From a virus (Duplodnaviria; Heunggongvirae; Uroviricota; Caudoviricetes): DNA of 8,950 bases. Made by a program: the position numbers. This document shows, piece by piece, positions 3,001 to 6,000 of this stretch. Position 1 is the first letter of the stretch. Each line of letters opens with the position of its first letter. The DNA lies in the IMG/VR virus record IMGVR_UViG_2534681939_000020, positions 1 through 8,950 of that record. The stretch is one strand, 5' to 3'.

Positions 3001-6000
3001 AACCAATGTATACATACCTGATTCGCTCACAATGCTTAGATTCTGCTCACCACCAAGGGTGTAACTTAAAGTTACTCCCTTTTCATCGTCATCAAGTGCA
3101 GTAAGCGCCTTGCGTGAGTTAGTCAAAGCTAAAGCATCACAAACATCTTTAGCTACAAACCACGGCTCACCGCACTTGTTGATGACGCGGATTTCACTGT
3201 CGCCGAATTTGAAGATAGTGAAATCGTTTTGTGCCTTTGCTATACTTTTCATGTCAATATTTCCTAAGCCGATTTGTTGATAACGAAGCCCTGACTGTTA
3301 CAGCAGTTGGGGCTTCAACTTTCTGCTCTATCAGTTATATCTTTCCCTTCGTACACTTCACCTATATTGCTAATGCTGGCAGAACATCCAAGATACTTGT
3401 ATCTTATGATGTCAAACACGCAGTCACTACACAGCATCCGACCTGTTTCTTTAGAGTAAATGTATGTTTGATCAGCGTCTGATTCGCTAATGCCGCAAAA
3501 AACAACATTCTTTACTCATACCGTTATCCCCTCTCTCTTCAGGCTGTCCAGCAATCGCTTAATCACTTGCGTATTTTCATGAAAGGAGATCACTCAATAA
3601 CTTCCATCGAGATCGGGTAATAACATTTGAACAGATCGCTGAATAACATCGATGGAGATCACTTTTGACTCATTTTGTTATTCAGTGATCTCCATCAATG
3701 TTATTGGAACTTCACAGGTGTGTTGATCTGTATCTTTTGCCATTCCGGTAAAGGATACCTATGCCAACAGTTCCAATTTCTATGAGAAAACTTAAAGAAA
3801 TTCTTAGGCTTAAATACGGTGTTGGACTCAGCCATCGACAAATTGGTCGTAGTCTTGCAATCTCCCCTTCCGTTGTATCCAGATATGCTAATCGGGCGGC
3901 TCAACTTGGCATAAAGCAGTGGCCCTTACCTACAGGATGGGATGATACAAAACTAAAACATGCGTTCCTTCAGACCCAGGTTAAGATGAAGAAGCACTCT
4001 CTGCCTGACTGGGCTACAGTACACCGGGAACTGCGTAATAAATGCGTGACGCTGCAGCTACTCTGGGAAGAATACTGTGAGCGTAATCCAGGCGGTTTTT
4101 ACAGCTATAACCATTACTGCCGGATGTACCGTGAATGGCTCAAAACCACTTCACCATCAATGCGTCAGGTACATAAAGCTGGCGAAAAACTTTTCGTTGG
4201 ATTGGACACCGTCAGTGACGGGCGGGCACTGCTGCCCTTCCCGTTCATCTCAAAACCGCTGCCGTCAATCGGGTATGCCTGATATTCCCGCCCCTGCCAG
4301 GTAACCGCCTCCCCTTTTTCATTCAGCTCATTGCAGAAAAAATACCGCTCACCACCCTGCACCGTCAGGTCGATTTCCCAGAGCACCACCCGCGGTGACT
4401 GCTCTGATTTAACCGACTCGTTCAGGCTTTCTTCATGAATATTCTGCATCAGTTCACCACCTGCTCAATCGTACAGCTGAAATCACTGTACCGGGCGTTA
4501 TCCGTGACGCTCCACTCCCGGCACACCACCCTCACCGTCCGGTTATGTTTCGGCGGTCGCCACAAAAAGGCACGGTAACCACCATGCCAGGATAAAAATT
4601 CATCCAGCCAGCGCCGGGTTGACTCATCCGTCACCCGGAACACCGCCTGAAACGTCTTCAGTTGAGGATTCAGCCCTGTGGGGCGGCGCTGTTCATAACC
4701 GTCACCAAACCGCACCCTCACCACCGACGGCTCCTCACTCACCTGCATCCCTTCACGCGGGACCAGATGCAGCGTTTTTATCTCAGCCACTCAGCATTCC
4801 TCCGTCACGTCGCATGGACAGCATCACCGCCTGCACCCGCTGGTCAATCAGCTGCACAAGACTGCCTGCCGCCTCCGGCCCTATCTGTCCGTTAGCCCCG
4901 TCATTCTGAATGGCGATGTGGTAGACCGGGGAATACACCAGACCAGCACTGCCGTTCATACTGCCCACCGCGCGTACGCCCAGCGAGCCATCCGCCGCCC
5001 GGGTCAGGGGCATAATGGCTTCAGGTCCGGCTTCCCCCATCAGCCCGGCCCCTTTTGCAAACGCAAAGTACGTGGGCGTGTCCACAATGCTGTTGCTGTA
5101 CGCGCTCAGGTTTGCCGAGGTATACACGCCGCCTTTTGCATTGGCCACCGCTCCGCCCAGCCAGTCACCAATGCTGCCGAGAAATCCTCCCGACACCGGA
5201 CATACCGTTTGCCGCCGTCTTAATTCCGTTGACAATCGCGGCATTCATAAGAACTTTTGATATTTCCTGCAGCACTGATGAGGCCCAGCTGCGCCATTCC
5301 ACTTTATTTCCGTTCAGCATCTCCGTGATGTTATTCACCATCCCTGAGATACCCTCCGTCGCAAGCTGTGCTGCCTGTGAGGCGTAATCGGACGCATTAT
5401 CCACCCAGTTACTGAATCCCTCCTGCAGCCCTTTCTGCCAGTCCGCACGCTGCGCATCCGATTCGGCATAAAAAGTTTCCTGGTCTTTAAGGCGTTCACT
5501 CAGATACTGCGCGTTCTGTGCCAGAGCCTGTCTGTAAAAATCCTCACTGATATCCCCGGTCTGATACTGAGACTGAAGGTCCGCATCCTTCTGGCGGAAG
5601 CTGTCGCGGATCTGCTGCAACTCCCGCATGCGTTCTCTGGCTCGCTCCCCCTGCCCGTACCCCAGCAGTTCAGCATCATTCGACGCACGCGCAGCCGCAT
5701 TCTCATTCTTCAGTGTCTCTTCCCGGGATCGCAACTGTTCCCGGATTTTTTGCTGGTCAATCAGGGTCGCGTTACGCAGCAGTTCCTGCTTCTGCATCTC
5801 CGTCAGGGTTTTCGGTTCACCCAGCGCTGTCTGGTATTTCAGCTTCGCCAGCTCTGTATTCTGCCCCACCAGTGCCAGTTGCTCTTTCTGCTGCTTCAGC
5901 AGCCGGGAAAAACTGTCTTCCGCTTTTTCCGTCTCTGATTTTCCACCCCGGGATTTGGGTTTATTCGCCTCGTTATTGCGCCAGGCTTCCAGGGCATTAC

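What the first reader, a model, noticed from the sequence alone, without database searches (positions are those of the whole stretch)
3585..3726. Dense repeat array with a GATC cluster upstream of the istA fragment
A 22-bp near-perfect inverted repeat (3642-3663 / 3684-3705) plus several shorter direct copies and six GATC (Dam) sites lie within ~140 bp. This is consistent with the multiple terminal repeats of IS21-family ends; Dam control of the istA promoter, or an operator array for another DNA-binding protein, are speculative alternatives.
Basis: seen in the sequence. Interest (0 to 1): 0.45.

Follow-up and report, generated by a model that had tools for sequence, protein, structure and literature searches.

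The report
Left end of a broken ISEc12
The repeat-and-GATC cluster is the ordinary left end of a truncated ISEc12 insertion sequence (IS21 family), a row of predicted transposase-binding sites whose conserved core contains GATC, so it is a known kind of feature.

Summary
The 22-nt inverted repeat (21/22 complementary) and six GATC sites are present, and four of the GATCs are exactly 23 bp apart.

The array is the left terminal repeat region of ISEc12 (IS21 family, IS408 subgroup). The true terminus is the TG at window 3568, 17 bp upstream of the reported start. It is followed by four 23-bp direct units: L1 3572-3594, L2 3595-3617, L3 3618-3640 and L4 3641-3663. A fifth unit, Li (3684-3706), lies in inverted orientation. 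L4 and Li together make the reported inverted repeat.

Full ISEc12 copies are 2581 bp, end TG...CA and carry 5-7 bp target duplications. Their right ends carry the same unit.

The window copy is dead. Only IS nt 1-632 remain (3568-4199), with no DDE domain, istB or right end.

The 23-bp phasing matches the L1/L2 repeats of IS5376. There the box at offsets 21-26, which GATCAC occupies here, is read by the IstA HTH-1 domain.

The GATC cluster is therefore a by-product of the recognition core. IS408 in Burkholderia, which does not methylate GATC, keeps it. ISAs29 in Aeromonas lacks it. Dam control is unsupported but not excluded. Interest is low.

The parts
3568..3594 (+). ISEc12 left terminus (5'-TGCG) plus terminal unit L1 (3572-3594, TATTTTCATGAAAGGAGATCACT). 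GATC at 3588.
   Evidence: The terminus is fixed by comparison with the full copy L002 (3508-6088, 2581 bp, TSD TCACT). It is also fixed by 13 IMG/VR copies whose 5-7 bp TSDs abut TG...CA in unrelated flanks. TGCGTATT occurs once in the window.
3595..3617 (+). Unit L2, CAATAACTTCCATCGAGATCGGG. GATC at 3611.
   Evidence: 23-bp register.
3618..3640 (+). Unit L3, TAATAACATTTGAACAGATCGCT. GATC at 3634.
   Evidence: 23-bp register.
3641..3663 (+). Unit L4, GAATAACATCGATGGAGATCACT. GATC at 3657. This is the left arm of the reported inverted repeat.
3664..3683 (.). 20-bp A+T-rich spacer between L4 and the inverted unit. Its last 8 nt (3676-3683, TGTTATTC) are an inverted copy of the GAATAACA box that starts a unit.
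   Evidence: pair I1; extended Li.
3684..3706 (-). Unit Li, a complete unit in inverted orientation (reverse complement CAATAACATTGATGGAGATCACT, 21/23 identical to L4). GATC at 3687, 30 bp after the GATC of L4. This is the right arm of the reported inverted repeat.
   Evidence: The +30 spacing of an inverted unit is conserved in IS408, ISAs29 and the Aeromonas, Rheinheimera and Pseudoalteromonas relatives.
3707..3760 (+). Leader between the repeat array and istA. It holds the sixth GATC (3725-3728, inside TTGATC) and a Shine-Dalgarno-like AAAGGA (3750-3755). No promoter was identified.
   Evidence: The sixth GATC is not part of a unit and is lost in the 93%-identical Erwinia copy L005.
3761..4199 (+). 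istA fragment, codons 1-146 (the N-terminal DNA-binding region, no DDE domain). The open frame runs on into unrelated sequence to 4282.
   Evidence: Identity to ISEc12 ends after IS nt 632. RefSeq annotates an 'IS21 family transposase, incomplete' here. Pfam finds only a weak HTH-like match at aa 10-46, whereas full IstA has rve and Mu-transpos_C_2.
3516..3567 (-). Flank: 3' remnant of the arc gene into which the IS inserted.
   Evidence: The intact locus L096 has arc at the corresponding position (window coordinate = L096 + 1599).

Best explanation
The array is the left terminal inverted-repeat region of an ISEc12 copy (IS21 family, IS408 subgroup).

From the terminus TG at 3568 it holds four head-to-tail 23-bp units (L1-L4) and a fifth unit (Li) in inverted orientation. 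Each unit carries two boxes about one helical turn apart: AATAAC(A/T)T (TATTTTCA in the terminal unit) and (G/C)AGATC(A/G)(C/G).

By analogy with the solved IS5376 complex, each unit is a binding site for one IstA transposase molecule. HTH-2 would sit on the first box. HTH-1 would read the GATC-containing box in the major groove.

L1 and L2, together with R1 and R2 of the other end, would build the tetrameric synaptic complex, with the 23-bp phasing wrapping the DNA.

L3, L4 and Li are accessory sites. They most likely load extra IstA between the terminus and istA. That would stabilise assembly and occlude the region upstream of istA, giving autoregulation and a block to read-through from outside.

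The inverted repeat and the GATC cluster are consequences of this site arrangement, not separate devices.

What is shown here:
- the identity of the array with the ISEc12 left end
- the terminus and the unit geometry
- conservation of that geometry across the subgroup
- truncation of the window copy

What is inferred:
- IstA binding to each unit
- the assignment of the two HTH domains to the two boxes
- the role of the accessory sites

In this window the element is a dead relic. It lacks the catalytic domain, istB and the right end.
For: - Window 3568-4199 is 100% identical to nt 1-632 of full ISEc12. RefSeq annotates istA and istB of ISEc12 in full copies.
- The terminus and TSDs are seen in many independent copies.
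- The right end carries the same unit inverted: R1 and R2 with GATC at 20 and 43, plus a partial inverted Ri at 91.
- GATC spacing is exactly 23 bp.
- IS5376 TIRs consist of 23-bp L1/L2 and R1/R2 repeats, both required for integration. Each has CS1 and CS2 boxes, with HTH-2 on CS1 and HTH-1 (R31/K32, major groove) on CS2 (PMC10122671).
- IS5376 CS2 (TCCCCA) lies at offsets 21-26 from the terminus. GATCAC occupies the same offsets in ISEc12.
- ISEc12 IstA is homologous to IS5376 IstA (PDB 8b4h and 8q4d, E = 3e-13) and has the rve and Mu-transposase C-terminal domains.
- The architecture is conserved down to 47-59% IstA identity: four direct units at the left end in every relative examined; an inner inverted unit about 30 bp in, and 2-3 direct units with an inner site at the right end, in most. 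Core cores sit at offsets 20/21, 43/44, 66/67 and 89-91. This holds for IS408, ISAs29, IS1491 and relatives in Pseudoalteromonas, Aeromonas, Psychromonadaceae and Nitrosomonas, while the core sequence itself changes: GATCAC, TGAACAC, CTGCCAC, ATCCGGC.
- PMC10122671 also proposes that IstA binding occludes promoter elements in the TIRs.
Against: - No binding data exist for ISEc12 IstA.
- The N-terminal HTH region of ISEc12 IstA did not align with IS5376 by phmmer (one search covers residues 107-389 only), so the HTH-to-box assignment rests on position and geometry.
- No istA promoter was found, so autoregulation by the accessory sites is conjecture.
- The solved complex needs only two units per end, so the function of L3, L4 and Li is not established.
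- Some relatives have lost one or two units by 23-bp-register deletions. Either not all units are essential or those copies are impaired.
Confidence: 0.92

Rival explanations
1. Dam/SeqA control. The GATCs are kept because methylation state gates IstA binding or istA transcription, as in IS10, coupling ISEc12 activity to passage of the replication fork. This would add to, not replace, the transposase-site reading.
For: - Every unit at both ends has GATC in the box predicted to be read in the major groove, where the N6-methyl group lies.
- GATC is the only invariant tetranucleotide of the five left units.
- ISEc12 carries 23 GATC against 9.9 expected, 10 of them in the two ends.
- Dam control of transposase binding and expression is established for Tn10/IS10 (PMC5371812).
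- Within the first set of relatives, all GATC-cored elements were in gammaproteobacterial orders that I know to have Dam.
Against: - The host correlation breaks on a wider sample.
- IS408 in Burkholderia has GTGATCAC cores at the same offsets. Burkholderia cepacia complex methylomes show CACAG and GTWWAC, not GATC (bioRxiv 10.1101/2020.03.09.983379).
- ISAs29 in Aeromonas has TGAACAC cores with no GATC.
- An invariant 4-6 bp box is expected for any recognition core; IS5376 CS2 is equally invariant.
- No promoter overlapping a GATC was found, and the sixth GATC is lost in L005.
- ISEc12 is abundant in Dam+ E. coli, with up to 14 left ends per genome, so full methylation does not silence it.
- No paper in the searched library links the IS21 family with Dam.
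Confidence: 0.2
2. The L4/Li palindrome is a dedicated operator, for IstA itself or for a host protein, whose main job is transcriptional control of istA rather than transposition chemistry.
For: - It is a near-perfect 22-bp palindrome just upstream of istA.
- An inverted unit about 30 bp after the last direct unit is conserved from IS408 to ISEc12.
- Occlusion of promoters by IstA is proposed for IS5376.
Against: - No promoter was found near it.
- In Pseudoalteromonas and Aeromonas relatives the inverted unit resembles L2/L3, not the adjacent L4. The conserved feature is therefore an inverted site at a fixed distance, not a palindrome.
- The right end, which has no gene to control downstream, also carries an inner inverted site (GATC at 91-92) in ISEc12, IS408 and Pseudoalteromonas.
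Confidence: 0.25
3. The inverted repeat acts as an RNA hairpin in read-through or istA leader transcripts, as an attenuator or stabiliser.
For: The region folds well as RNA: -32.7 kcal/mol, z = -5.5.
Against: - There is no T-run and no terminator-like site.
- No Rfam family reaches threshold.
- In relatives only the two protein-contact boxes of the unit are kept, and the middle of the would-be stem is not complementary. Compare Aeromonas L4 with its Li; the Pseudoalteromonas Li matches L2.
- In the Enterobacter copy the same G-to-A change appears in L1, L4 and Li, including the non-pairing L1.
Confidence: 0.04
4. Iterons of a replication origin, or binding sites for an unrelated phage or host protein with Dam sites as in oriC or P1 oriR.
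For: Phased direct repeats with clustered GATC superficially resemble iteron origins.
Against: - The array travels with a 2581-bp element bounded by TG...CA and target duplications.
- It occurs at thousands of unrelated chromosomal, plasmid and prophage sites.
- It is mirrored at the element's other end.
- There is no rep gene nearby.
Confidence: 0.01

Closest known systems
ISEc12 (IS21 family), as annotated in RefSeq and PLSDB records
   Same: Window 3568-4199 is 100% identical to nt 1-632 of full copies, with the same terminus, units and istA start.
   Different: The window copy is a fragment. It has no DDE domain, no istB and no right end, and no target duplication can be read.
IS408 (Burkholderia), the closest named relative found (IstA 48.9% identical)
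   Same: - Terminus TGCGTATT.
- Four 23-bp direct units at the left end with a GATC-containing core (GTGATCAC) at offsets 20, 43, 66 and 89.
- An inverted unit 30 bp further in.
- Right end with cores at 20 and 42, plus an inner site at 91.
- 8-bp TSD.
   Different: The first box of the unit is ATTTCGG/ATTCCGG rather than AATAACAT. The host does not methylate GATC.
IS5376 / IS21 terminal inverted repeats (L1-L2, R1-R2), with cryo-EM structures 8B4H and 8Q4D
   Same: - TG...CA termini.
- 23-bp direct repeats, each with two conserved boxes.
- The second box lies at offsets 21-26.
- IstA catalytic region is homologous.
   Different: - Only two units per end are described, with no inverted inner unit.
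- There is no sequence similarity of the boxes (GCCG / CCCC against AATAAC / GATCAC).
- IstA is 400 aa against 513 aa.
- IS21 itself has no GATC in its ends.
Phage Mu ends (L1-L3, R1-R3 MuA sites; my own knowledge plus PMC10122671 discussion)
   Same: The transposase fold is related. Each end has several binding sites, of which only some are in the catalytic core and the others are accessory. By my recollection one Mu site (R3) is inverted.
   Different: Mu also uses an internal enhancer and host HU/IHF. Spacing and site number differ. The comparison is an analogy and was not tested here.
Dam-sensitive ends of IS10/Tn10 (also IS50 and IS903, from my own knowledge)
   Same: GATC lies inside the sequence that the transposase is expected to contact.
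   Different: In IS10 there are one or two sites with demonstrated methylation effects. Here there are eight in-unit sites with no functional data, and the comparative evidence speaks against selection by Dam.

Membership tests
IS21 family (ISEc12) | Sequence identity to a complete, bounded element that encodes IstA (DDE transposase) and IstB (AAA+ helper). | tested here: met
   Window 3568-4199 equals nt 1-632 of the 2581-bp copy in L002, 100% up to nt 632. L002 has istA and istB annotated as ISEc12. IstA has rve and Mu-transpos_C_2 and matches IS5376 IstA structures.
IS21 family (ISEc12) | An intact element in this window: full istA, istB and both ends. | tested here: not met
   Homology stops at IS nt 632. 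No right-end motif is present in the window. RefSeq marks the CDS as incomplete. The window holds a fragment of a member, not an intact member.
IS21 family (ISEc12) | Termini 5'-TG ... CA-3' with related inverted ends. | tested here: met
   The left end is TGCGTATTTTCATGAAAGGAGATC. The right end, reverse-complemented, is TGCGTATTACCGTGAAGGAGATC in L002. The window has the left terminus only, at 3568.
IS21 family (ISEc12) | Multiple direct terminal repeats spaced 23 bp apart (L1, L2 ... / R1, R2 ...). | tested here: met
   GATC lies at 3588, 3611, 3634 and 3657. Units are listed. The 23-bp rule is taken from PMC10122671.
IS21 family (ISEc12) | Target-site duplication of 4-8 bp. | tested here: met
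   5-7 bp TSDs in 13 ISEc12 copies plus L002, and 5-8 bp in relatives. It cannot be read for the window copy itself because the right end is deleted.
IS21 family (ISEc12) | IstA binds the repeats and synapses the ends. | not testable with these tools
   Inferred from IS5376 biochemistry and cryo-EM.
Dam-regulated insertion sequences (IS10 type) | GATC inside the transposase-binding site. | tested here: met
   GATC lies in the second box of all five left units and of R1, R2 and Ri. That these units are binding sites is itself inferred.
Dam-regulated insertion sequences (IS10 type) | GATC overlapping the transposase promoter. | tested here: inconclusive
   No sigma-70-like promoter in 3400-3900. 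The sixth GATC sits in TTGATC without a usable -10 and is not conserved in L005.
Dam-regulated insertion sequences (IS10 type) | GATC retention tied to hosts that methylate GATC. This is the comparative expectation, not a formal definition. | tested here: not met
   IS408 in Burkholderia keeps GATC, and Burkholderia cepacia complex methylomes lack GATC methylation. ISAs29 in Aeromonas has no GATC in its units.
Dam-regulated insertion sequences (IS10 type) | Transposition or transposase expression changes with methylation state. | not testable with these tools
   This needs dam+/dam- assays.
Iteron-type replication origin | Iterons next to a rep gene, at a fixed replicon location. | tested here: not met
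   The array is found at thousands of unrelated sites as part of a mobile element. The neighbours are istA and a phage arc remnant.

The most novel reading that the evidence does not exclude
In Dam+ hosts such as E. coli, all eight in-unit GATCs of ISEc12 lie in the box that IstA HTH-1 is predicted to read in the major groove. Methylation state, and SeqA binding to the five nearly in-phase hemimethylated sites at the left end, could then modulate IstA loading and tie ISEc12 transposition to replication-fork passage. This would be an incidental or secondarily exploited effect, because the GATC core predates entry into Dam+ hosts (IS408). It would be the first methylation-sensitive IS21-family element.
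Probability: 0.2. Interest if true: 0.45.

Novelty: already known. Interest (0 to 1): 0.15.

Why it matters
It matters little for discovery. The feature is the catalogued left end of a very common E. coli insertion sequence, and the multi-repeat, 23-bp-phased architecture of IS21-family ends is in the literature.

Three by-products may be useful.

- **Annotation.** The precise map for this locus is: terminus at 3568, five units, truncation after IS nt 632, and insertion into the arc gene of a P22 immI-like moron in a lambdoid tail operon.
- **Conserved end architecture.** The whole IS408/ISEc12/ISAs29 subgroup keeps a richer end than the two-plus-two sites used in the IS5376 structures. At the left there are four direct units, followed in ISEc12, IS408, ISAs29 and the Aeromonas, Rheinheimera and Pseudoalteromonas relatives by an inverted unit 30 bp further in. 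At the right there are two to three direct units plus an inner site. That gives structural biologists a defined question about accessory sites.
- **A cautionary example.** A striking GATC cluster can arise purely from a repeated recognition core.

Tried and rejected
1. **Target preference for AATCACT.** The window and L002 share AATCACT just before the terminus, and most plasmid hits start there. I rejected a preference because about 30 other distinct left flanks are unrelated.

2. **Dam-host correlation.** It seemed to hold among the first 53 related loci: GATC cores only in Enterobacterales, Alteromonadales and Aeromonadales, and none in Nitrosomonas or Francisellaceae. It broke when named relatives were fetched: IS408 in Burkholderia has GATC, and ISAs29 in Aeromonas does not.

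3. **istA promoter.** The consensus scan found none in 3400-3900 on either strand. Hand inspection found only poor candidates: TTGATC with no -10, and TTCACA-14 nt-TATCTT.

4. **Junction promoter across tandem copies, as in IS21.** TTCACG in the right end and TATTTT in the left end would be 17 bp apart with a 3-bp junction. This was read by eye, is not conserved in the Aeromonas relative, and was left as unsupported.

5. **RNA reading.** The fold is strong, but there is no Rfam family above threshold and no stem conservation in relatives.

6. **Literature.** Searches for IS21 family plus Dam/GATC found nothing relevant. Papers that mention ISEc12 only report insertions.

7. **Right end or TSD in the window.** None is present.
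Full report
**Observation.**
- The repeat finder reports arms 3642-3663 and 3684-3705: 22 nt, 95% complementary, 20 nt apart.
- GATC occurs at 3588, 3611, 3634, 3657, 3687 and 3725. The last site ends at 3728, 2 nt beyond the stated end.
- The first four sites are exactly 23 bp apart.
- The window as a whole is poor in GATC: 18 against 34.6 expected from shuffles.
- Six sites in 141 bp were reached in 2 of 20000 random placements. An inverted repeat of this quality occurs once in the window and never in five dinucleotide shuffles.

**Identity.**
- Megablast of 3400-3900 finds the part from about 3561 onward at 5599 places in 2120 of 5426 complete E. coli genomes and in 741 plasmids. 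It is always annotated as the start of 'IS21-like element ISEc12 family transposase'.
- The whole 501 bases occur in only one of these genomes, E. coli O157:H7 strain 493/89 (NZ_CP038412.1), which is evidently the source of the window.
- A full copy inserted in a P2 capsid gene (L002) runs from TGCGTATTTTCATG... to ...CGGTAATACGCA. It is 2581 bp and is flanked by a 5-bp duplication, TCACT.
- Thirteen further copies in IMG/VR prophage contigs have 5-7 bp duplications directly abutting TG...CA, in unrelated flanks.

The left terminus in the window is therefore the T at 3568, 17 bp upstream of the reported start. The heptamer AATCACT that precedes the terminus in both the window and L002 is coincidence, not a target preference.

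**State of the window copy.**
- The window matches ISEc12 nt 1-632 without a mismatch (3568-4199) and then diverges.
- No right-end motif exists anywhere in the window.
- What remains is the repeat array and codons 1-146 of istA. The open frame continues into unrelated sequence to 4282.
- Pfam finds only a weak HTH-like match in this fragment. The full protein has the rve and Mu-transposase C-terminal domains.

This copy cannot transpose on its own.

**Anatomy.** After the terminal TGCG come four 23-bp units in register:

| Unit | Window coordinates | Sequence |
|---|---|---|
| L1 | 3572-3594 | TATTTTCATGAAAGGAGATCACT |
| L2 | 3595-3617 | CAATAACTTCCATCGAGATCGGG |
| L3 | 3618-3640 | TAATAACATTTGAACAGATCGCT |
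| L4 | 3641-3663 | GAATAACATCGATGGAGATCACT |
| Li (inverted) | 3684-3706 | reverse complement CAATAACATTGATGGAGATCACT |

- A 20-bp spacer (3664-3683) separates L4 from Li.
- Li is 21/23 identical to L4, and its GATC lies 30 bp after that of L4.
- L4 plus Li are the reported inverted repeat.
- AGATC is invariant in all five units.
- The right end of full copies has R1 and R2, with GATC at offsets 20 and 43. It also has an inner inverted site with a good second box only, with GATC at 91.

Five of the six GATCs are simply the core of the repeated unit. The sixth (3725) lies in the leader and is lost in the 93%-identical Erwinia copy.

**Comparison with known IS21-family ends.** Spinola-Amilibia et al. 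(PMC10122671) describe IS5376 as follows.
- The TIRs consist of two 23-bp direct repeats per end, and both are required for integration.
- Each repeat has two conserved boxes, CS1 and CS2, about 10 bp apart.
- HTH-2 of IstA reads CS1. HTH-1 (R31, K32) reads CS2 in the major groove.
- IS5376 L1 is TGT-TAAAGCCGATGATAAAATCCCCA, which puts CS2 at offsets 21-26 from the terminus.

In ISEc12, GATCAC occupies exactly offsets 21-26. ISEc12 IstA aligns with the IS5376 IstA structures over the catalytic and beta-barrel region (E = 3e-13). The N-terminal HTH region did not align by sequence, so the box-to-domain assignment is an inference from geometry.

**Relatives.** A scan of one genome per species with IstA returned 53 loci, and a tblastn of plasmids gave named relatives.
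- Elements with IstA 55-65% identical occur in Psychromonadaceae, Psychrobium, Paraglaciecola, Algicola, Pseudoalteromonas, Aeromonas and Rheinheimera.
- All start TGC(A/G)TATT and have four left units with cores at 21, 44, 67 and 90/91. They have two or three right units at 20, 43 (and 66).
- Most have an inverted inner unit whose core lies 30 bp after the last direct one.
- IS408 of Burkholderia (48.9% identity) has the same plan with GTGATCAC cores at 20, 43, 66 and 89, and the inverted unit at 119. Its right end has cores at 20, 42 and 91.
- ISAs29 (Aeromonas), IS1491 (Pseudomonas) and a Nitrosomonas element keep the four 23-bp-phased left units (ISAs29 also the inverted unit), but their cores are TGAACAC, ATCCGGC-CAC and CTGCCAC.
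- IS21 itself was recovered with its expected 2131-bp length. Its ends have no GATC.

The architecture is thus a conserved trait of the IS408/ISEc12 subgroup, and the core box co-varies with the transposase lineage. That is what one expects of transposase-binding sites.

**The inverted repeat as such.** It folds strongly as RNA (-32.7 kcal/mol, z = -5.5). Several points argue against an RNA function.
- No terminator-like feature and no Rfam family supports it.
- In Aeromonas, only the two boxes of Li match L4 and the middle does not.
- In Pseudoalteromonas, Li is an inverted copy of an L2-like unit, not of the adjacent L4.

What is conserved is an inverted binding unit at a fixed distance, not a stem. 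The right end, which has no downstream gene, also has an inner inverted site. That weakens a pure operator reading.

I infer that L3, L4 and Li are accessory IstA sites. They would aid assembly, as accessory MuA sites do in phage Mu (my own knowledge). When occupied they would shield the region upstream of istA, in line with the occlusion model in PMC10122671. No promoter could be located, so this step is conjecture.

**Dam.** The idea has some appeal.
- The N6-methyl groups of a GATC lie in the major groove, where HTH-1 is predicted to read.
- IS10 is a precedent (PMC5371812).
- Within the first set of relatives, all GATC-cored elements were in gammaproteobacterial orders that I know to carry Dam.

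The correlation fails on a wider sample.
- IS408 keeps GATC in Burkholderia, whose methylomes show CACAG and GTWWAC but not GATC (bioRxiv 10.1101/2020.03.09.983379).
- ISAs29 in Aeromonas has no GATC in its units.
- An invariant 4-6 bp box is expected for any recognition core.

The GATC cluster therefore needs no Dam explanation. A methylation effect in E. coli remains possible, at about 0.2, but it is untested, and I found no paper linking the IS21 family with Dam.

**Context.** The IS sits in a P22 immI-like module carried between lambdoid tail genes L and K.
- ant lies at 2374-3252 on the minus strand, with Bro-N and P22AR_C domains.
- sar antisense RNA lies at 3254-3320 on the plus strand (Rfam 66.7 bits against a gathering score of 43).
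- A 52-nt 3' remnant of arc lies at 3516-3567.
- The intact locus in O145 strains (L096) has arc, a second Arc-family (mnt-like) gene and a complete tail gene L.

Here a deletion removed five things:
- the 5' part of arc
- the intergenic region next to arc
- the mnt-like gene
- the 3' part of L
- IS nt 633-2581

**Verdict.** The finding is a correct description of an ordinary, already known feature: the multi-site left end of ISEc12, here as a dead fragment. The Dam and foreign-operator alternatives are not supported. Interest is low.

Noticed in passing
window 3254-3320 (+), with 2374-3252 (-) and 3516-3567 (-): A sar antisense RNA (Rfam RF00262, 66.7 bits against a gathering score of 43) sits next to an ant-like gene with Bro-N and P22AR_C domains and a 52-nt arc remnant. 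This is a P22 immI-like module carried as a moron between lambdoid tail genes L and K. ISEc12 inserted into arc. In the intact locus (L096) arc and a second Arc-family (mnt-like) gene are present.
   Followed up: partly
window 4199-4449: A deletion joins IS nt 632 to the N-terminal 249 bp of tail gene L (4201-4449, minus strand). It removed the 3' part of L, the mnt-like gene, the 5' part of arc and IS nt 633-2581. The prophage tail operon is therefore probably defective, and ant has lost the upstream region next to arc that the intact locus has.
   Followed up: partly
window 3761-4282 (+): The open frame encodes IstA residues 1-146, the predicted DNA-binding region without the catalytic domain, fused to 27 unrelated residues. 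If expressed, it could bind ends of the other ISEc12 left-end copy reported in the same chromosome (2 places in the record). This was not tested.
   Followed up: no
L029 1730-1830 (Aeromonas media chromosome): The left end of ISAs29 and the left end of a different IS408-subgroup element lie head to head with only 2 bp between their termini (88/88 nt match to ISAs29). This suggests insertion of one element at the tip of another.
   Followed up: partly
L029, L032, L041, L054 left ends; L041 right end: Relatives differ in unit number by whole 23-bp units: three or two left units instead of four, and one right end reads R1-R2-R1-R2. This is as expected from recombination between the direct repeats.
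   Followed up: no
L004 1-150 (Enterobacter asburiae copy, IstA 93% identical): The same G-to-A change three bases before GATC (GGAGATC to AGAGATC) is present in L1, L4 and Li but not in L2, L3, R1 or R2. This looks like concerted change or conversion among the most similar units.
   Followed up: no
whole window: GATC is under-represented overall: 18 against 34.6 expected. Seven of the 18 lie between 3470 and 3728. Full ISEc12 is itself GATC-rich: 23 against 9.9 expected.
   Followed up: no
L010 4700-4800 (Psychromonadaceae MAG): The end of another, unexamined IS21-type element has CCGATCG cores at offsets 20 and 43 and an inverted one at 91. That is the same right-end geometry as ISEc12 and IS408.
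   Followed up: no
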